In this document: one piece after another, positions 14-5,457 of the stretch
Layout: each line of letters opens with the position of its first letter
Numbering within the stretch: the stretch's first letter is position 1
Virus record (IMG/VR): IMGVR_UViG_2778261154_000004
Source of the DNA: a virus
Taxonomy: Duplodnaviria > Heunggongvirae > Uroviricota > Caudoviricetes
Direction: 5' to 3' (one strand)
DNA length: 5,457 nt
Notes under the pieces: generated by a model
Seen by the model: only the letters and a program-made list of their open reading frames with translations
Database searches by the model: none
What the model was told of the DNA's origin: nothing
Program-made: the position numbers and the translations under genes

Positions 14-142
14 TATTAGCTCCTTCTGATGCCATTCTATTTCAGGAAGGAGTGTCCGTTAAACTCAGGCTACCTCATACCTATATCGCTAGGTAAATTT
101 AGTGGTGATCATCCTGCCAGTAAAGCTGTTATTTCTACTGAC

Positions 143-316
143 ATGAAAACTGGTGAGGAGGTTTATTATGAAGCAGCTATGGATGCTGTCAGAGAAGGAT
201 TTGATAGTTCGTCAATTAGTCGTTGCTGTAATGGCGAAAGCTCATATCACAAAGGAAGATTCTGGCGATTTGCAAATGAAACAATGAAAGCGCGATGGGG
301 AGACAGGGCGGCATGA
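143..316 (+). CDS. NinD-like small protein (57 aa)
   Basis: ORF ends in an ATGA stop/start overlap with the NinE start at 313, the lambda nin-region coupling style. The 57-aa length from ATG 143 matches lambda NinD as I recall it. No SD precedes 143 and the frame stays open back to ATG 29, so the start is uncertain. Confidence 0.45.
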
Positions 317-530: not shown

Positions 531-839
531 TTAAACGAAGCGGATCTGGAGTTTTTTTCCAGTAGCGCGGGCGAATTTTTTTAGTGTGGCAAATGATGGG
601 CCGCTGATACCTGATGCGAGATTACTTTCCATTCTGGTGATCGCGGTCGCTTTTGTTCCCATTCGCTCGGCAACTTCAGCCTGAGTTAAGCCAGCTTCTT
701 TGCGTGCTGCCAGCATTTCATCAAGCAGTGCGAATTCGTCAGCGATAGCGTCGTATTCTGCTTTAAAAGCCGGGTCTTCCATCCATTTGGCTGCCATTTC
801 GTCGTGTGTCATGGTGGGGAGAGTGCGTTTACCAGTCAT
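531..839 (-). CDS. XRE-family HTH antitoxin (HigA-like)
   Basis: 102 aa with an HTH motif (GLTQAEVAERMGTKATAITRME) and C-terminal ATLKKFARATGKKLQIRFV. On the minus strand AAGGAGGT (complement of 846-853) lies 5 nt upstream of ATG 839-837. The start overlaps the upstream toxin stop by 11 nt. Confidence 0.8.
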   Translation of the reverse strand: MTGKRTLPTMTHDEMAAKWMEDPAFKAEYDAIADEFALLDEMLAARKEAGLTQAEVAERMGTKATAITRMESNLASGISGPSFATLKKFARATGKKLQIRFV

Positions 840-1158
840 GCTTAACCTCCTTCATTCTGGTTTCAGCTTTCTTGCGTTCGGCTGGCGGTGTTTTCTGCGT
901 TTTCTTTACAAAACTATGCAGCATGATGATGCGTTTCCCTGTCAGAGTGCAGTAAAAAACACGCGCGATCCCATCGTTGCCTTTAATTCTGAGTTCGAAA
1001 AGCCCGTCACCAAAGGCGCTGGTGTGAGGTTCTCCGAGATTGCTGCCATATATCTTCATACGTTCAACGAGATGTTGGTATCGGGCACGCATACTCAATG
1101 GAAGCCGATCGACTTCCAGCCTTACATCTTCACTGTAGTATTCGATAGTGTAGTTCAT
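829..1158 (-). CDS. RelE/ParE-superfamily toxin (HigB / phage Gp49-like, DUF891-type)
   Basis: 109 aa from MNYTIEYY; motif GDGLFELRIKGNDGIARVFYCTLTGKRIIMLHSFVKKTQKTPPAE is typical of the Gp49/HigB-2-type toxin fold. Toxin-first order with overlap into the HTH antitoxin. Start 1158 chosen; in-frame ATGs at 1170 and 1293 also exist. Confidence 0.75.
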   Translation of the reverse strand: MNYTIEYYSEDVRLEVDRLPLSMRARYQHLVERMKIYGSNLGEPHTSAFGDGLFELRIKGNDGIARVFYCTLTGKRIIMLHSFVKKTQKTPPAERKKAETRMKEVKHDW

Positions 1159-1203
1159 AGGTATCAACATAACAAAATCGTTATATGCATTCAAGGCCTG
1201 TAG

Positions 1204-1233
1204 TTGACGACAACACATATCCGGGGCTATATT
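1204..1233 (+). promoter_or_regulatory. Candidate sigma70 promoter (TTGACG - 18 nt - TATATT) facing rightward
   Basis: -35 TTGACG at 1204-1209, 18-nt spacer, -10 TATATT at 1228-1233. Predicted start near 1240, exactly where the first hairpin begins. Judged by eye only. Confidence 0.35.
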
Positions 1234-1239
1234 CCTCAT

Positions 1240-1316
1240 ACGCCAGCAAAATCTGGCGTCGGGATTGGCGTCCCGGATATCGAAACGGTGCATAACCGCG
1301 CTGGCGGTTTTTTTAT
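1240..1316 (+). ncRNA. Candidate small structured RNA or terminated leader (about 75 nt, three stem-loops)
   Basis: Hairpin 1 at 1240-1259 (ACGCCAG/CTGGCGT, perfect 7 bp, 6-nt loop); hairpin 2 at 1260-1275 (CGGGA/TCCCG); terminator hairpin 1294-1309 followed by a T-run. The CUGGCG motif recurs three times. No ORF with an RBS on this strand. Confidence 0.35.
1294..1316 (+). terminator. Rho-independent terminator (plus strand)
   Basis: AACCGC-GCTG-GCGGTT stem-loop (6 bp, 4-nt loop) followed by T7 (1308-1314). On the minus strand the hairpin is not followed by a U-tract, so it is unidirectional. Confidence 0.55.
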
Positions 1317-2163: not shown

Positions 2164-2181
2164 CAGATTGCCAACGCAACG

Positions 2182-2204
2182 ACCCAGCTTCGGCTGGGTT
2201 TTTT
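2182..2204 (+). terminator. Rho-independent terminator (plus strand)
   Basis: ACCCAGC-TTCG-GCTGGGT: perfect 7-bp stem with a TTCG tetraloop (2182-2199), followed by a T-run to 2204. Lies 19 nt after the stop of the upstream gene. Confidence 0.7.
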
Positions 2205-2237
2205 ATTGCTGAATTTTCAATATGAGAGGACATGACA

Positions 2238-2960
2238 ATGAACGAGCTGATAAATAGCAACGCCATCAAAATGACCAGCATTGAAATCGCTGAGTTGGTG
2301 GGTAAGCGTCATGACAATGTGAAACGTACCATCGAAACGCTGGCTAAAAATGGTGTTATCCGGCTTCCTCAAATTGAGGATTGTGGAAGAATCAATGGGT
2401 TAGGCTTAAATCAAAGTTTTTGTGTGTATGTATTCGAAGGCGAACAAGGAAAGCGAGACAGTATTGTCGTTGTAGCCCAGTTGTCGCCGGAATTCACCGC
2501 TCGTCTTGTTGACCGTTGGCGAGAGCTTGAAGAAACTGCGGTTAATATCCCCAAAACGCTACCAGAAGCGTTGCGCCTTGCTGCTGATCTTGCTGAGCAG
2601 AAAATGCAACTGGAAAACCAGCTCGCAATTGCCGCACCTAAAGTTGAGTTTGCCGATCGCGTTGGCGAGGCCAGCGGAATTTTGATTGGAAACTTTGCAA
2701 AGGTTGTTGGTATTGGTCCAAACAAACTGTTTGCGTGGATGCGCGATCACAAAATCCTTATTGCTTCAGGTTCCCGGCGCAATGTGCCAATGCAGGAATA
2801 TATGGATCGTGGCTATTTCGCAGTGAAAGAAACAGCGGTCAACACAAATCACGGAATACAGATATCGTTCACCACAAAAATCACCGGGCGTGGTCAACAG
2901 TGGCTGACCAGAAAGCTGCTCGATAACGGAATGCTGAAAGTAACCGGGGAGGCTGCTTAA
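2238..2960 (+). CDS. Phage regulatory protein Rha N-domain with KilA-C/ANT C-domain (antirepressor-like)
   Basis: N-terminus MTSIEIAELVGKRHDNVKRTIETLAKNGVI is a classic Rha signature; the C-terminal half resembles antirepressor KilAC/ANT domains. SD AGAGGA at 2225-2230 gives 7-nt spacing to ATG 2238 (ATG 2232 is only 1 nt from the SD). Stop overlaps the next start (TAATG). Confidence 0.8.
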   Translation: MNELINSNAIKMTSIEIAELVGKRHDNVKRTIETLAKNGVIRLPQIEDCGRINGLGLNQSFCVYVFEGEQGKRDSIVVVAQLSPEFTARLVDRWRELEETAVNIPKTLPEALRLAADLAEQKMQLENQLAIAAPKVEFADRVGEASGILIGNFAKVVGIGPNKLFAWMRDHKILIASGSRRNVPMQEYMDRGYFAVKETAVNTNHGIQISFTTKITGRGQQWLTRKLLDNGMLKVTGEAA

Positions 2961-3250
2961 TGGCTAACCTACGCAAAGAAGCACGCGGCAGAGAATGCCA
3001 GGTACGTATTTACGGCGTATGCAATGGCAACCCTGAAACTACAGTTCTGGCACATTACCGGATGGCTGGAATTTGCGGAACGGGAATGAAGCCTGACGAC
3101 CTGATCGGCGCATGGGCTTGTAGCGCGTGTCACGATGAAATCGACCGACGCACCCATAATCTCGACAACAAAGACGCCAGGCTTTACCACCTCGAAGGCG
3201 TGATCAGGACGCAGGCGATACTGCTGAAGGAGGGGAAGATTAAGCCATGA
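2960..3250 (+). CDS. DUF1364 family Cys-rich protein (YbcO-like)
   Basis: 96 aa with conserved cysteines and an ACSACHDEIDRRTH motif; resembles my recollection of E. coli DLP12 YbcO, which also sits just upstream of rusA. SD GGGGAGG at 2946-2952. ATGA overlap with the rusA start. Confidence 0.75.
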   Translation: MANLRKEARGRECQVRIYGVCNGNPETTVLAHYRMAGICGTGMKPDDLIGAWACSACHDEIDRRTHNLDNKDARLYHLEGVIRTQAILLKEGKIKP

Positions 3251-3609
3251 ACGAATATCAGTTTGTGCTTCCATACCCGCCGTCGCTGAACACCTACTGG
3301 CGAAGACGGGGAAGCCGATACTACATCAGCGATAAAGGCCAGAAATACCGAAAAGACGTTCAGCAAATCATCCGCCAACTCAAGTTAGATATTTTCACCA
3401 AAGCACGACTCCGCATCAAAGTCATCGCAGACGTTCCAGACTCCCGCCGCCGCGACCTCGATAACATCCTGAAGGGGCTACTCGACTCTCTTATCCACGC
3501 CGGATTTGCGGAAGACGACGAGCAATTCGATGACATTCGCGTAATTCGTGGTGTGAAAGTACCAGGCGGAAGGCTTGGAATAAAAATCACCGAACTGGAG
3601 AACGTATGA
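3247..3609 (+). CDS. rusA: Crossover junction endodeoxyribonuclease RusA (Holliday junction resolvase)
   Basis: 120 aa; N-terminus and the RRRDLDN, AGF..DD and GGRL motifs match the RusA family (cf. E. coli RusA, 120 aa). SD GGAGG at 3229-3233; ATGA overlaps at both ends. Confidence 0.9.
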   Translation: MNEYQFVLPYPPSLNTYWRRRGSRYYISDKGQKYRKDVQQIIRQLKLDIFTKARLRIKVIADVPDSRRRDLDNILKGLLDSLIHAGFAEDDEQFDDIRVIRGVKVPGGRLGIKITELENV

Positions 3610-3794
3610 ACGCCACAATTCAAACGATACCAGAGCTTCTTATCCAGACACGAGGCAATCAGACCGAAGTGGCGAGGATGCTTTCCTGCGCAAGAGGAAC
3701 AGTGCTCAAGTACAACCGAGACAGCAAAGGCGAGCGTCACGTAATAGTTAACGGCGTCCTGATGGTCAAACAGGGCAAGAGGGGAAGACGATGA
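3606..3794 (+). CDS. ninH: NinH-like small HTH protein
   Basis: 62 aa; GNQTEVARMLSCARGTVLKY ... HVIVNGVLMV closely resembles lambda NinH as recalled. ATGA overlaps with rusA upstream and Q downstream. Confidence 0.75.
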   Translation: MNATIQTIPELLIQTRGNQTEVARMLSCARGTVLKYNRDSKGERHVIVNGVLMVKQGKRGRR

Positions 3795-4414
3795 GACTCG
3801 AAAGCGTAGCTAAATTTCATTCGCCAAAAAGCCCGATGATGAGCGACTCACCACGGGCTACGGCTTCTGACTCTCTTTCCGGTACTGATGTGATGGCTGC
3901 TATGGGGATGGCGCAATCACAAGCCGGATTCGGAATGGCTGCATTTTGCGGTAAGCATGAACTCAGCCAGAACGACAAACAAAAGGCTATCAACTATCTG
4001 ATGCAATTTGCACACAAGGTATCGGGGAAATACCGTGGTGTGGCAAAGCTCGAAGGAAACACTAAGGCAAAGGTACTGCAAGTGCTCGCAACATTCGCTT
4101 ATGCGGATTATTGTCGTAGTGCCGCGACGCCGGGCGCAAGATGCAGAGATTGCCACGGTACAGGCCGGGCAGTTGATATAGCAAAAACAGAGCAGTGGGG
4201 GAGAGTTGTTGAGAAAGAGTGCGGAAGATGTAAAGGCGTCGGTTATTCAAGGATGCCAGCAAGCGCAGCATATCGCGCTGTAACGATGCTAATCCCAAAC
4301 CTTACTCAACCCACCTGGTCACGCACTGTTAAGCCGCTGTATGACGCCCTGGTGGTGCAATGCCACAAAGAAGAGTCAATCGCAGACAACATTTTGAATG
4401 CGGTCACACGTTAG
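3791..4414 (+). CDS. Q: Late-gene antiterminator Q (lambda type)
   Basis: 207 aa beginning MRLESVAKFHSPKSPMMSDSPRATASDSL and including the CRDCHGTGR...CGRCKG zinc-binding region; essentially identical over its length to lambda Q as I recall it. SD AGAGGGGAAG precedes the start. Confidence 0.95.
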   Translation: MRLESVAKFHSPKSPMMSDSPRATASDSLSGTDVMAAMGMAQSQAGFGMAAFCGKHELSQNDKQKAINYLMQFAHKVSGKYRGVAKLEGNTKAKVLQVLATFAYADYCRSAATPGARCRDCHGTGRAVDIAKTEQWGRVVEKECGRCKGVGYSRMPASAAYRAVTMLIPNLTQPTWSRTVKPLYDALVVQCHKEESIADNILNAVTR

Positions 4415-4456: not shown

Positions 4457-4500
4457 TTGACTTTTTGAATAAAGTTGGGTAAATTTGACTCAAGAATGGC
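4457..4500 (+). promoter_or_regulatory. Late promoter pR' with the promoter-proximal part of the qut site
   Basis: -35 TTGACT (4457-4462), 17-nt spacer, -10 TAAATT (4480-4485), as in lambda pR'. Sequence from the Q stop to about +9 is near-identical to lambda, including a -10-like element in the initial transcribed region (AAGAAT here, AACGAT in lambda). Confidence 0.8.
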
Positions 4501-4674: not shown

Positions 4675-4749
4675 GGGTCAGTCGTATAAAGGTCATTACG
4701 GAAGGCTGTTAACCTTCTTATCGTGGTTCGAGTCCACGCTGTCCCGCCA
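4675..4749 (+). tRNA. tRNA-Asn-like, anticodon GUU (possibly degenerate)
   Basis: Cloverleaf traced by hand: acceptor GGGTCAG/CTGTCCC (6 bp plus a T-T mismatch at 4:69), U8, D-arm with A14/G18G19/A21, perfect anticodon stem GAAGG/CCTTC with loop CTGTTAA, perfect T-arm CGTGG-TTCGAGT-CCACG, discriminator G, encoded CCA. Confidence 0.55.
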
Positions 4750-4754
4750 AACAT

Positions 4755-4830
4755 GCTGGTTTAGCTCCAATGGTAGAGCAGTCGCCTTGTAAGCGAATGG
4801 GTAGCGGTTCAAGTCCGTTAACCAGCACCA
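4755..4830 (+). tRNA. tRNA-Thr, anticodon UGU
   Basis: Perfect 7-bp acceptor stem GCTGGTT/AACCAGC, D-arm GCTC-CAATGGTA-GAGC, anticodon loop CTTGTAA (U33, UGU, A37), T-arm AGCGG-TTCAAGT-CCGTT, discriminator A, encoded CCA. Minor deviations: C at position 14 and a G-A closing pair in the anticodon stem. Confidence 0.75.
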
Positions 4831-4946
4831 TAACTGAGCCGTAGCCACTGGCTATCCTGAATTCATCAGTGACAGTTACGCTGCGGCCTTCTTTTTCCCT
4901 TCCCAATATAAGAACTACGCCATCCGTTATTTGCGGAGGTGAGGCT

Positions 4947-5162
4947 ATGAAATCCATGGACAAAATATCAACGGGCATTGCCTACGGCACCTCCGCAGGC
5001 AGTGCCGGCTACTGGTTTTTACAGTGGCTTGATCAGGTCAGTCCATCACAGTGGGCTGCGATTGGTGTGCTGGGAAGTCTGCTTCTGGGGCTTCTGACTT
5101 ATCTGACGAATCTGTATTTCAAAATAAGAGAAGATAAGCGTAAGGCTGCGAGAGGTGAATAA
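4947..5162 (+). CDS. S: Class II holin / pinholin (phage 21 S-type) with dual-start motif
   Basis: 71 aa starting [28 protein letters not shown] with two hydrophobic segments and C-terminal [13 protein letters not shown], matching the phage 21 pinholin as recalled. SD GGAGGTGAGG at 4935-4944. Met1 (4947) and Met4 (4956) give the antiholin/holin dual start. Upstream in-frame ATG 4869 lacks an SD. Confidence 0.9.
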
Positions 5163-5457
5163 TGTCGCCATCATTACGCAAGGCTGTTGCAGTTGCTATT
5201 GGTGGCGGGGCTGTTGCTATAGCATCTGTGTTAATCACTGGCCCAGGTGGTAACGATGGTCTGGAAGGTGTCAGCTACATACCATACAAAGATATCATTG
5301 GTGTATGGACTGTATGTCACGGACACACCGGAAAAGACATCATGCCTGGTAAAACGTATACCGAAGCAGAATGCAAAGCTCTCCTGAATAAAGACCTTGC
5401 CACTGTCGCCAGACAAATTAACCCGTACATCAAAGTCGATATACCGGAAACAACGCG
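5162..5457 (+). CDS. R: SAR endolysin (phage 21 R-type lysozyme, T4-lysozyme-like), 3' end truncated by the window
   Basis: Start overlaps the holin stop (TAATG). Translation [59 protein letters not shown]... has a Gly/Ala-rich signal-anchor-release segment then the lysozyme catalytic region. Runs to the window end with no stop. Confidence 0.9.

What the first reader, a model, noticed from the sequence alone, without database searches (positions are those of the whole stretch)
2960..3250. Cys-rich DUF1364 (YbcO-like) gene translationally coupled to rusA
A 96-aa protein with cysteines arranged as C-x7-C ... C ... C-x2-C-H-D-E is tightly coupled by ATGA to the RusA resolvase gene. The family is poorly characterised; the pattern suggests metal binding, and the conserved partnership with rusA hints at a role in DNA processing.
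Basis: partly seen in the sequence, partly recalled or inferred. Interest (0 to 1): 0.4.

Follow-up and report, generated by a model that had tools for sequence, protein, structure and literature searches.

The report
Small phage HNH nuclease beside RusA
This is an ordinary, already catalogued gene of lambda-like prophages: a 96-residue zinc-stabilised HNH-type nuclease (YbcO/DUF1364, called HkbD in phage HK620) that usually sits just upstream of the RusA Holliday-junction resolvase gene, and whose real substrate has never been tested.

Summary
A 96-aa ORF lies at 2960..3250 (+) with the stated Cys pattern, and it overlaps rusA (3247..3609) by ATGA.

It is a clear member of Pfam PF07102 "Putative nuclease YbcO" (E 1.8e-44) and about 70% identical to the solved structure 3G27. 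The same ybcO-rusA DNA occurs in 1093 of 5426 complete E. coli genomes and in HK620/HK022-type phages.

Across 75-130 diverse homologues, C13, C21, C54, C57, H32, H58, G40 and K44 are invariant, and D47 and D62 nearly so.

In 80 loci from GTDB species-representative genomes, RusA is immediately downstream in 57 and one gene away in 2. Other junction nucleases replace it in 5. The upstream gene varies.

However, the ATGA overlap is shared by every junction in this operon, RusA works alone, and RusA often occurs without YbcO.

The nuclease prediction and the RusA neighbourhood were both published in 2016-2017. Best reading: a core-only, Ref-like HNH nickase acting in phage recombination. Novelty: already known. 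Interest is low.

The parts
2960..3250 (+). ybcO/hkbD-like gene: 96-aa DUF1364 (PF07102) small HNH/His-Me finger protein
2946..2952 (+). Shine-Dalgarno-like GGGGAGG, 7 nt before the ybcO ATG, inside the end of the upstream gene
   Evidence: Read directly from the sequence. Function inferred.
2958..2962 (+). TAATG overlap: stop codon of the Rha/KilAC antirepressor gene and start codon of ybcO share one base
2996..3022 (+). first zinc knuckle: codons for C13 (2996-2998) and C21 (3020-3022), spaced C-x7-C
   Evidence: Both invariant in 75 diverse homologues, and 125/128 and 127/127 in 130 representatives. Zinc ligation is inferred from the treble-clef classification of 3G27 (PMC4999995).
3053..3055 (+). 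codon for H32, the candidate general-base His at the end of beta-strand 1 (29-32)
   Evidence: Invariant. Lies at the end of strand 29-32 in the model. PMC4999995 superimposes it on the catalytic His of His-Me nucleases.
3077..3100 (+). conserved loop G40-x-G-x-K44-P-x-D47 between the two strands
   Evidence: G40 and K44 invariant, D47 121/130. A similar G.GM..K motif is present in PhiNM1 Gp16 and the Vibrio Ref-core protein. Role inferred.
3119..3145 (+). second zinc knuckle and helix: C54-x2-C57-H58-x3-D62 (helix 55-61)
   Evidence: C54, C57 and H58 invariant; D62 124/130; D59 86/130; E60 not conserved. Helix 55-61 in the model. H58/D62 as ligands of the catalytic metal is inferred.
3227..3235 (+). 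Shine-Dalgarno-like AAGGAGGGG for rusA, inside the 3' end of ybcO
   Evidence: Read directly from the sequence. Function inferred.
3247..3250 (+). ATGA overlap of the rusA start codon and the ybcO stop codon
   Evidence: The same 4-nt overlap is present in 53 of 57 loci where RusA follows directly.
3247..3609 (+). rusA: 120-aa RusA Holliday-junction resolvase
   Evidence: Pfam PF05866 E 2.6e-16. phrog_34 E 1.4e-53. PDB 1Q8R/2H8C E 1e-26.
2232..2960 (+). upstream gene of the same operon: Rha/KilAC antirepressor-like (Roi-like) protein. This position is variable in related loci.
   Evidence: Pfam ANT E 1.3e-32 and Phage_pRha. The upstream neighbour varies across 65 loci.
3606..4414 (+). downstream genes of the same overlapping operon: ninH (3606-3794) and the Q antiterminator (3791-4414)
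   Evidence: Pfam Phage_NinH E 2e-24 and Antiterm E 1.3e-57. Both junctions are ATGA overlaps.

Best explanation
The ORF is the ybcO/hkbD gene of a lambdoid prophage nin region. It is transcribed with the delayed-early right operon and translated from its own Shine-Dalgarno site, in an unbroken run of overlapping genes: Roi-like, YbcO, RusA, NinH, Q.

**What the protein is.** It is a minimal, core-only member of the HNH / His-Me finger nucleases. Four invariant cysteines (C13, C21, C54, C57) most likely hold a structural zinc in a treble-clef knuckle. That knuckle scaffolds a beta-beta-alpha-metal site. H32 at the end of strand 1 would be the general base. H58 and D62 on the helix, perhaps with D47, would hold the catalytic divalent metal.

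**What it most likely does.** I think it nicks DNA in recombination or replication intermediates during lytic growth, such as D-loops, RecA- or annealase-bound joints, and forks. It would act in the same pathway as the junction resolvase encoded next to it. Its nearest characterised relatives are P1 Ref and staphylococcal phage PhiNM1 Gp16. Both are RecA-dependent or RecA-stimulated nickases.

**The targeting problem.** YbcO has only the catalytic core. It lacks Ref's basic tail and the NinB-like domain of Gp16. It therefore probably needs a partner to reach its substrate: RecA, a branched DNA structure, or another nin protein.

**Shown versus inferred.**
- Shown here: family membership, fold, the conserved residues, and gene-order statistics.
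- Inferred: zinc binding, nuclease activity, substrate, and any RecA or RusA dependence.
For: **Family and fold.**
- PF07102 at 150 bits; phrog_131 'HNH endonuclease'; 3G27 E 2.6e-40.
- The AF2 model has pLDDT 95.5, with strands 29-32 and 50-53 and helix 55-61.

**Conserved residues.** C13, C21, H32, G40, K44, C54, C57 and H58 are invariant in 75 sequences down to 41% identity. D47 and D62 are at least 90% conserved.

**Literature.**
- FFAS links YbcO to Ref (3PLW) and to PF16784, with the catalytic His superimposed (PMC4999995).
- YbcO is classed as a His-Me finger in group 7 together with DUF968 (PMC5714182).
- PhiNM1 Gp16, which I confirmed to be PF16784, is a RecA-interacting nickase (PMC12817073).
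- Ref is a RecA-dependent HNH nickase (PMC4330346, PMC3973344).
- A motif-level alignment shows collinear C..C, LAH(Y/H), G.G(M).K and C-x2-(C/H)-H in YbcO, Gp16, Ref and a Vibrio Ref-core protein.

**Gene context, downstream of YbcO (80 loci from GTDB species representatives; a few genomes contribute 2-3 loci).**
- RusA follows directly in 57 loci and after one inserted gene in 2.
- VRR-NUC follows in 4, and a DUF1064/phrog_190 'Holliday junction resolvase' in 1.
- The upstream neighbour is heterogeneous: DUF1367 13, NinB 8, Dam 4, and others.
- YbcO stays at a median 73% pairwise identity, while its RusA partner falls to a median 42% and splits into two clades below 35%.
- A 42%-identical YbcO in Vibrio phage 1.236.O still overlaps a very divergent RusA.

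**Gene context, upstream of RusA.** Other His-Me nucleases occupy the slot immediately upstream of RusA:
- DUF968/YdfU
- NinG
- a 93-aa RecA_dep_nuc core
- a small sub-threshold YbcO/DUF968 protein

.
Against: **No experimental data.** No biochemical or genetic result exists for any DUF1364 protein in the literature I could search.

**Homology to Ref is not shown by sequence here.**
- Profile-versus-sequence hhalign to Ref, NinG, Gp16 and the Vibrio Ref-core gave probabilities below 2%.
- Foldseek found nothing significant beyond 3G27.

**The active site is atypical.**
- Ala precedes the catalytic His, where D or H is usual.
- The first knuckle is C-x7-C rather than C-x2-C.
- In Gp16 the equivalent His (H157A) was dispensable for toxicity (PMC12817073).

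**No evident DNA-binding element.** The Ref core alone (deltaN76) does not bind DNA and is about 100-fold less active (PMC4330346).

**The link to RusA could be inherited gene order.**
- The ATGA overlap is operon-wide.
- RusA resolves junctions on its own and works in E. coli when switched on by IS insertions upstream (PMC1636454, PMC10956419).
- 9 of 13 sampled RusA contexts outside the close YbcO lineage have no recognisable HNH upstream.
- About 100 Vibrio-phage records carry a YbcO-like gene with no detectable RusA.
- 7 of 80 loci have YbcO followed directly by Q or a DUF1133 protein, with no resolvase within 4 kb.
Confidence: 0.45

Rival explanations
1. YbcO is an active HNH nuclease, but its adjacency to rusA is only inherited gene order in the tightly packed nin operon. 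Its real job would be unrelated to junction resolution: attacking host DNA or host replication (host takeover, as shown for PhiNM1 Gp16), or excluding or countering other mobile elements.
For: - All junctions in the operon overlap, so overlap says nothing specific.
- RusA is autonomous (PMC1636454, PMC10956419).
- RusA is frequently found without YbcO, and YbcO-like genes occur without RusA.
- Gp16 inhibits host replication (PMC12817073).
- P1 Ref's defined phenotype is enhanced antibiotic lethality rather than a need in phage recombination (PMC4713147 abstract).
Against: - The upstream neighbour is very variable while the downstream one is RusA in about 75% of loci.
- RusA is swapped for deeply divergent RusA clades and for the unrelated junction nucleases VRR-NUC and DUF1064.
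- Four different His-Me families sit immediately upstream of RusA in other phages.
- This two-sided replacement is hard to explain by descent alone.
Confidence: 0.3
2. YbcO and RusA form a physical complex. RusA, a junction-binding dimer, would recruit the core-only HNH nickase to branched DNA. Translational coupling would set their stoichiometry.
For: - YbcO lacks any DNA-binding extension, unlike Ref, Gp16/DUF968 and NinG (PMC4330346).
- Adjacency with a 4-nt overlap holds in 53 of 57 RusA-adjacent loci.
- DUF968-RusA fusions are reported in the literature (PMC4118853).
Against: - YbcO at about 70-80% identity is paired with RusA proteins below 35% identical to each other, and with unrelated VRR-NUC/DUF1064 nucleases. 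Pairwise identities correlate only weakly (rho 0.30).
- The YbcO-RusA 'fusions' in the databases are deletion chimeras or frameshifts that remove parts of both proteins.
- RusA needs no partner in vitro or in vivo (PMC10956419).
Confidence: 0.1
3. YbcO is a selfish free-standing homing endonuclease, or a terminase-associated HNH used for cos cleavage.
For: - Free-standing HNH genes are common in phage genomes.
- One locus (L008) has a true HNH_3+AP2 homing-type gene inserted right after ybcO.
- One locus (L076) has a small terminase subunit gene downstream.
Against: - The gene holds a fixed position in the early nin operon, upstream of Q.
- It has high conservation (median 73%) and no NUMOD, AP2 or other target-recognition domain.
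- It is present in about 20% of E. coli genomes as part of a conserved block.
- Terminase-linked HNH genes lie beside the terminase genes in the late operon, not here.
Confidence: 0.05
4. YbcO is a catalytically dead zinc-finger protein that only binds DNA or protein, in a regulatory or structural role.
For: - The active site is atypical: Ala precedes the His, and there is no canonical Asn.
- In Gp16 the zinc-finger residues mattered more than the nuclease-centre residues for toxicity (PMC12817073).
Against: H32, H58 and D62 are invariant or nearly so across sequences as low as 41% identical. That degree of conservation is expected for catalytic residues rather than for residues with a purely structural role.
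Confidence: 0.1

Closest known systems
YbcO of E. coli K-12 prophage DLP12 / phage 82 (PDB 3G27; Pfam PF07102 DUF1364); HkbD of phage HK620
   Same: - Same position directly upstream of rusA.
- It is 97-100% identical to the HK620/HK633/HK542/Kapi1 proteins.
   Different: Nothing of substance. It is an allele. The upstream neighbour differs: NinE in DLP12-type phages, a Roi-like antirepressor here.
Bacteriophage P1 Ref (PF16786 RecA_dep_nuc; PDB 3PLW), a RecA-dependent HNH nickase
   Same: - HNH core with a zinc knuckle and a collinear C..C / xH / C-x2-x-H motif.
- A 93-aa Ref-core homologue sits in the YbcO position upstream of RusA in Vibrio phage 1.082.O.
   Different: - There is no PF16786 match for YbcO, and hhalign is not significant.
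- YbcO lacks the 76-residue basic disordered N-terminal DNA-binding segment.
- Its first knuckle is C-x7-C rather than C-x2-C, and its fourth ligand is Cys rather than His.
- RecA dependence is untested.
Staphylococcus phage PhiNM1 Gp16 (PF16784 HNHc_6 / DUF968-like) and E. coli YdfU (PF06147 DUF968)
   Same: - Placed with DUF1364 in His-Me group 7 (PMC5714182).
- Shares a local LAHY..G.GM..K motif and the C-x2-x-H helix.
- Gp16 is a RecA-interacting nickase (PMC12817073).
- A DUF968 protein lies directly upstream of RusA in phage vB_EcoS-689R5.
   Different: - These proteins are 220-350 aa, with an N-terminal NinB/Orf-like domain that YbcO lacks.
- Their zinc site is CxxC...CxxH.
- hhalign against single sequences is not significant.
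Lambda NinG/Rap (PF05766), a branch-specific HNH endonuclease of the nin region
   Same: - A His-Me-type nuclease in the nin operon just upstream of ninH.
- In phage mEp013, NinG sits immediately upstream of RusA with a 4-nt overlap.
- NinG was found near only 1 of 80 YbcO loci.
   Different: - NinG is 204 aa, with an N-terminal basic/zinc region.
- It shows no significant sequence match to YbcO.
- NinG has demonstrated activity on D-loops and junctions; YbcO has none demonstrated.

Membership tests
Pfam PF07102 YbcO / DUF1364 | Scores above the curated Pfam gathering threshold over the full domain | tested here: met
   150.1 bits against a cut-off of 29.9, covering residues 3-92 of 96 and profile positions 2-91 of 92.
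Pfam PF07102 YbcO / DUF1364 | Single-domain protein of about 95 residues with four conserved Cys and the conserved His | tested here: met
   96 aa. C13, C21, C54, C57, H32 and H58 are invariant in alignment A2 and at least 97% conserved in 130 representatives.
Pfam PF07102 YbcO / DUF1364 | Same three-dimensional fold as the solved member 3G27 | tested here: met
   [not shown]
His-Me finger (HNH, beta-beta-alpha-metal) nuclease superfamily | Two antiparallel strands followed by a helix, with a His at the end of strand 1 | tested here: met
   Strands 29-32 and 50-53, helix 55-61. H32 ends strand 1 and is invariant.
His-Me finger (HNH, beta-beta-alpha-metal) nuclease superfamily | Metal-binding residue(s) on the helix and/or next to the catalytic His | tested here: inconclusive
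   H58 is invariant and D62 124/130 on the helix; D47 121/130 in the loop. The residue before H32 is Ala, not Asp or His.
His-Me finger (HNH, beta-beta-alpha-metal) nuclease superfamily | Significant structural similarity to proven HNH nucleases | tested here: inconclusive
   [not shown]
His-Me finger (HNH, beta-beta-alpha-metal) nuclease superfamily | Divalent-metal-dependent nuclease activity | not testable with these tools
Treble-clef zinc finger | Four ligands, from a knuckle and from the start of a helix, binding one zinc | not testable with these tools
   Ligand candidates C13/C21 and C54/C57 are invariant. 3G27 is listed among treble-clef zinc fingers (PMC4999995). Metal occupancy was not checked here.
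Ref / RecA-dependent nuclease (Pfam PF16786) | Match to the PF16786 profile | tested here: not met
   The window protein has no PF16786 hit at E<=0.01. P1 Ref scores E 2.3e-51 and the Vibrio 93-aa protein E 2.8e-14.
Ref / RecA-dependent nuclease (Pfam PF16786) | Basic, disordered N-terminal segment needed for DNA binding | tested here: not met
   Only 12 residues precede the first Cys. The whole protein is the core. For the Ref requirement see PMC4330346.
Ref / RecA-dependent nuclease (Pfam PF16786) | Cleavage only of RecA-bound DNA | not testable with these tools
   This is a biochemical property.
Translationally coupled gene pair | Overlapping stop and start codons, with the downstream ribosome-binding site inside the upstream gene | tested here: met
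   ATGA at 3247-3250 and AAGGAGGGG at 3227-3235. Actual coupling of translation was not tested, and the same layout holds for the neighbouring junctions.

The most novel reading that the evidence does not exclude
'Small His-Me nickase followed by a junction resolvase' may be a general two-gene phage recombination cassette with interchangeable parts.
- Upstream options: YbcO, the DUF968 HNH, a Ref-core protein, or NinG.
- Downstream options: RusA, VRR-NUC or DUF1064.

Within this cassette, core-only YbcO would be a RecA-filament- or D-loop-directed nickase whose cuts feed the resolvase. That would give lambdoid phages a Ref-like, host-RecA-exploiting step in replication or recombination that has gone unnoticed.
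Probability: 0.2. Interest if true: 0.5.

Novelty: already known. Interest (0 to 1): 0.2.

Why it matters
It matters only modestly.

**Prevalence.** The gene is carried by about a fifth of complete E. coli genomes (1093 of 5426) and by many model lambdoid phages. Yet no DUF1364 protein has ever been assayed.

**Why a test is now timely.** YbcO's two nearest profile relatives have both turned out to be RecA-dependent or RecA-stimulated nickases. These are Ref, and the PF16784 family represented by PhiNM1 Gp16 (shown in 2026).

**What a positive result would add.** If YbcO behaves the same way, it would:
- add a host-RecA-exploiting nuclease to the classic nin recombination genes (Orf, Rap, RusA);
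- explain why RusA phages carry it;
- supply a very small (96 aa) HNH nickase core for engineering.

As a scan finding it is a correct call on an already catalogued gene.

Tried and rejected
**Structure and homology searches.**
1. The first structure prediction used a shallow alignment (38 sequences, at least 71% identical) and gave pLDDT 62. I discarded it. A 75-sequence diverse alignment gave 95.5.
3. NCBIfam has no model for the protein.

**Locus retrieval.**
5. The single-protein RusA scan of viral contigs returned 80 nearly identical loci. They were useless for independent statistics, so I sampled RusA contexts by hand from the phage collection instead.

**Ideas rejected.**
6. Rosetta-stone fusions. 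The four database proteins that match both YbcO and RusA are deletion chimeras joined at an NLDN/DLDN microhomology, or frameshifted reads.
7. A hidden gene on the opposite strand. The antisense ORF 2969-3274 is not conserved.
8. Unknown genes downstream of YbcO as cryptic RusA relatives. L062, L071 and Vibrio phage D53 showed no similarity.
9. 'YbcO+RusA replaces NinG' as a simple alternative cassette. NinG is almost absent near YbcO. However, phage mEp013 has NinG directly upstream of RusA. NinG therefore parallels YbcO rather than the pair.
Full report
**1. What is in the sequence**

The window is the nin (delayed-early right) region of a lambdoid prophage. Reading along the + strand it contains:

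| Coordinates | Feature |
|---|---|
| 295-489 | NinE |
| 531-1293 (reverse strand) | Gp49/HigB-like toxin plus HTH antitoxin pair |
| 1477-2163 | ORF6N/P22_AR_C antirepressor-like gene |
| 2181-2200 | Strong terminator-like hairpin |
| 2232-2960 | Rha/KilAC (Roi-like) gene |
| 2960-3250 | The finding |
| 3247-3609 | rusA |
| 3606-3794 | ninH |
| 3791-4414 | Q |
| 4457-4485 | pR'-like promoter |
| 4675-4830 | tRNA-Asn and tRNA-Thr |
| 4869-5162 | P21-type holin |

The DNA is 94-98% identical to HK620, HK022, HK140, Kapi1 and mEp506-type phages. The ybcO-rusA block occurs in 1093 of 5426 complete E. coli genomes.

**2. Identity of the protein**

- Pfam PF07102 'Putative nuclease YbcO' matches at E 1.8e-44.
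- PHROG 131 'HNH endonuclease' matches at E 7.5e-50.
- The crystal structure 3G27, which is YbcO of phage 82/DLP12, matches at E 2.6e-40 and about 70% identity.
- The gene is HkbD in HK620. RefSeq labels it 'HNH endonuclease' in phages and 'DUF1364 domain-containing protein' in E. coli.
- An exhaustive search finds 1205 cluster representatives at E<=0.001.

**3. Which residues matter**

I aligned 130 representatives and a curated set of 75 full-length sequences down to 41% identity.

- Invariant positions are C13, C21, H32, G40, K44, C54, C57 and H58.
- D47, D62, T27, V29, A8 and T84 are at least 90% conserved.
- C39 is Cys in only 36 of 123 sequences. D59 is conserved in 66%. E60 is not conserved.

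**4. Fold**

- A shallow alignment gave an unusable model with pLDDT 62.
- The diverse alignment gave pLDDT 95.5, with strands 29-32 and 50-53, helix 55-61 and a long C-terminal helix 70-90. This is a beta-beta-alpha-metal core with H32 at the end of strand 1.
- Profile-versus-single-sequence hhalign to Ref, NinG, Gp16 or a Vibrio Ref-core protein is not significant.
- A motif-level alignment is nevertheless collinear: C..C, (L)AH(Y), G.G(M).K, C-x2-(C/H)-H.
- It also shows how YbcO differs. Its first knuckle is C-x7-C where the others have C-x2-C. Its fourth zinc ligand is Cys where the others have His.

**5. What the literature already says**

- Kaur and Subramanian (PMC4999995, 2016) classed 3G27 as a treble-clef zinc finger. 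They linked it by FFAS to P1 Ref (3PLW) and to PF16784, superimposed its His on the catalytic His of His-Me nucleases, and predicted a nuclease.
- Jablonska et al. (PMC5714182, 2017) placed DUF1364 with DUF968 in His-Me group 7. [quoted passage not shown]

I found no experimental work on any DUF1364 protein.

**6. Co-occurrence with rusA, given YbcO**

A scan of one genome per bacterial species returned 232 confirmed loci. The best 80 were kept. Their YbcO is 67-100% identical to the window protein, and they come from Enterobacterales, Pasteurellales, Pseudomonas and others. A few genomes contribute two or three loci.

| Gene downstream of YbcO | Loci (of 80) |
|---|---|
| RusA, immediately downstream | 57 |
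| RusA, after one inserted gene (an HNH_3+AP2 gene in L008; a NinI-like phosphoesterase in L079) | 2 |
| Cut by a contig end | 2 |
| VRR-NUC nuclease (four Pseudomonas-group loci) | 4 |
| DUF1064 / phrog_190 'Holliday junction resolvase' | 1 |
| Q antiterminator | 5 |
| DUF1133 | 2 |
| Integrase-like | 1 |
| Small terminase subunit | 1 |
| Unknown | 5 |

Of the 57 immediately adjacent RusA genes, 53 overlap ybcO by 4 nt.

- The upstream neighbour is heterogeneous: DUF1367 13, NinB 8, Dam 4, NinF 2, ANT 1, DnaB, lambda-P and others. About half have no Pfam family.
- YbcO is much better conserved than its partner. Median pairwise identity is 73% for YbcO against 42% for RusA. The RusA proteins fall into two clades below 35% identity. 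The correlation between the two sets of identities is weak (rho 0.30).
- A YbcO only 42% identical, in Vibrio phage 1.236.O, still overlaps a very divergent RusA (PF05866 E 1.2e-5; phrog_1682 E 3e-40).

**7. The reverse direction, given RusA**

In the phage collection, YbcO-like genes occur in 278 records and RusA in 413.

- Acinetobacter, Xanthomonas and Ralstonia phages are prominent among the RusA hits but not among the leading YbcO-hit groups.
- About 100 Vibrio phages have a roughly 32%-identical YbcO-like gene without detectable RusA.

I then read 13 RusA contexts taken across the identity range. One of them, Vibrio phage 1.082.O, was chosen because of its annotation.

| Gene immediately upstream of RusA | Phage |
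|---|---|
| DUF968/YdfU | vB_EcoS-689R5 |
| NinG (4-nt overlap) | mEp013 |
| 93-aa protein with sub-threshold YbcO/DUF968 matches | SEN22 |
| 93-aa RecA_dep_nuc (Ref-core) protein, overlapping RusA by 8 nt | Vibrio 1.082.O |
| DNA methylase | ST64B, KpF5 |
| LexA-like protein | cdtI |
| NinX plus a 64-aa unknown ORF | Lambda_ev245 |
| Unknown | WCHABP1, Jenny, XPP1, Pm34 |
| (RusA domain embedded in a 406-aa protein) | Mx4 |

The partnership is therefore strong from YbcO's side within the gamma-proteobacterial lambdoid lineage, and weak from RusA's side. The more general pattern is a small His-Me nuclease of one of four families immediately upstream of a junction resolvase.

**8. What the coupling does and does not show**

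Every junction from the Roi-like gene to Q overlaps, by 1, 4, 4 and 4 nt. In related loci, 14 of 21 non-RusA downstream genes also overlap ybcO by 4 nt. The ATGA is therefore a property of the operon, not of the pair.

RusA cuts junctions on its own. It suppresses ruv mutants when switched on by IS2 or IS10 insertions upstream of its coding sequence (PMC1636454, PMC10956419). YbcO is therefore not an obligatory RusA subunit.

The database 'fusions' of YbcO and RusA are deletion chimeras or frameshifts.

**9. Most likely mechanism**

*Shown:* family, fold, conserved residues and gene order.

*Inferred:*
- A structural zinc is held by C13, C21, C54 and C57.
- H32 acts as general base.
- H58 and D62, possibly with D47, hold the catalytic metal.
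- The enzyme has nicking activity.

The two nearest profile relatives named in PMC4999995 are both experimentally characterised.
- P1 Ref is a RecA-dependent nickase that cuts within D-loops (PMC3973344, PMC4330346).
- PhiNM1 Gp16, which I confirmed to be PF16784, is a RecA-interacting, RecA-stimulated nickase needed for efficient phage replication (PMC12817073).

The Ref core without its basic tail no longer binds DNA and is about 100-fold less active. YbcO consists of the core alone (96 aa, pI 8.7). It probably needs a partner or a special DNA structure to find its substrate.

My best reading is a core-only Ref-like nickase acting on recombination or replication intermediates in the same pathway as the adjacent resolvase (confidence about 0.45). 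Sub-claims:

| Sub-claim | Confidence |
|---|---|
| HNH-fold zinc protein | about 0.9 |
| Active nuclease | about 0.7 |
| RecA dependence | about 0.25 |
| Physical complex with RusA | about 0.1 |

The swapping of RusA clades and of unrelated resolvases argues against a specific protein-protein interface.

**10. Verdict**

- What I add is the exact conserved-residue set.
- I also add counts for the association. These show that the coupling is operon-wide. They also show two-sided replacement: four His-Me families upstream, and RusA, VRR-NUC or DUF1064 downstream.
- The last addition is the link to the 2026 Gp16 result.
- Interest is low (0.2).
- The most novel reading not excluded is a general 'nickase plus resolvase' cassette with a RecA-directed YbcO. 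I give it about 0.2 probability.

Noticed in passing
window 531-1293 (- strand): A Gp49/HigB-like toxin gene (829-1293, PF05973 E 1.9e-25) overlaps an HTH_3 antitoxin-like gene (531-839) by 11 nt. The pair is inserted in reverse orientation between ninE and the antirepressor genes. It looks like a toxin-antitoxin moron in the nin region.
   Followed up: partly
window 4675-4830: Two tRNA genes, tRNA-Asn(GTT) and tRNA-Thr(TGT), lie between the Q gene/pR'-like promoter (4457-4485) and the P21-type holin gene (4869-5162). This is the position where Stx and related lambdoid phages carry tRNAs.
   Followed up: no
window 2181-2200: A strong terminator-like hairpin (GACCCAGC-TTCG-GCTGGGTT followed by TTTTATT) sits between two tandem antirepressor-like genes: ORF6N/P22_AR_C at 1477-2163 and Rha/KilAC at 2232-2960. 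Transcription of ybcO-rusA-ninH-Q presumably depends on antitermination.
   Followed up: no
window 29-316: A 95-aa ORF has weak matches to the NUMOD-like DNA-binding domain of I-HmuI (Pfam E 3.6e-4, below threshold) and to phrog_20162 'HNH endonuclease' (E 8e-13). It is possibly the 3' remnant of a homing endonuclease gene. It overlaps the start of ninE (295-489).
   Followed up: partly
L008 4288-4815 (Cedecea sp. prophage): An HNH_3 + AP2 homing-endonuclease-type gene is inserted exactly between ybcO and rusA. It keeps the ATGA overlap with ybcO, and RusA follows at about 4706-5167.
   Followed up: partly
L162 2227-2860 (Vibrio phage 1.082.O): A 93-aa protein matching the Ref family core (PF16786 E 2.8e-14; also DUF968) lacks Ref's basic N-terminal tail. 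It overlaps the start of a RusA gene by 8 nt. It is a second core-only HNH family in the YbcO position.
   Followed up: partly
L168 479-1608 (phage mEp013); L167 130-1551 (phage vB_EcoS-689R5): NinG (PF05766) lies immediately upstream of RusA with a 4-nt overlap in mEp013. A 351-aa DUF968/YdfU protein lies immediately upstream of RusA, one base before its start, in vB_EcoS-689R5. NinG and RusA are therefore not simply alternatives.
   Followed up: partly
L178 616-1836 (Myxococcus phage Mx4): A RusA domain (PF05866 E 4.9e-17, residues 202-303) is embedded in a 406-aa protein whose flanking regions match no Pfam family.
   Followed up: no
proteins P0085 and P0133: These are YbcO-RusA chimeras of 117 and 160 aa. 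P0085 is joined at an NLDN/DLDN microhomology. Both lose the C-terminal helix of YbcO and the N-terminus of RusA, so they look like deletion pseudogenes rather than functional fusions.
   Followed up: yes
L001, L003, L004, L007, L031: Four contigs with 94-100% identical YbcO (E. coli-phage-like) are labelled as Cellvibrionaceae (L001), Bacillota (L003, L004) and Collinsella (L007) metagenome-assembled genomes. L031, labelled Bacteroides, carries a 76%-identical (Proteus-like) copy. These are probably mis-binned phage contigs.
   Followed up: no
L050, L053, L056, L060 (Pseudomonas-group prophages); L075 (Gilliamella): Where RusA is absent downstream of YbcO, an unrelated junction-type nuclease takes its place: VRR-NUC (PF08774) in the four Pseudomonas-group loci, or DUF1064/phrog_190 'Holliday junction resolvase' in Gilliamella.
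   Followed up: partly
window 3791-4414: The Q antiterminator (PF03589) carries a DnaJ-like CxxCxGxG zinc-finger match (PF00684, E 1.3e-4, below threshold) at residues 113-152.
   Followed up: no
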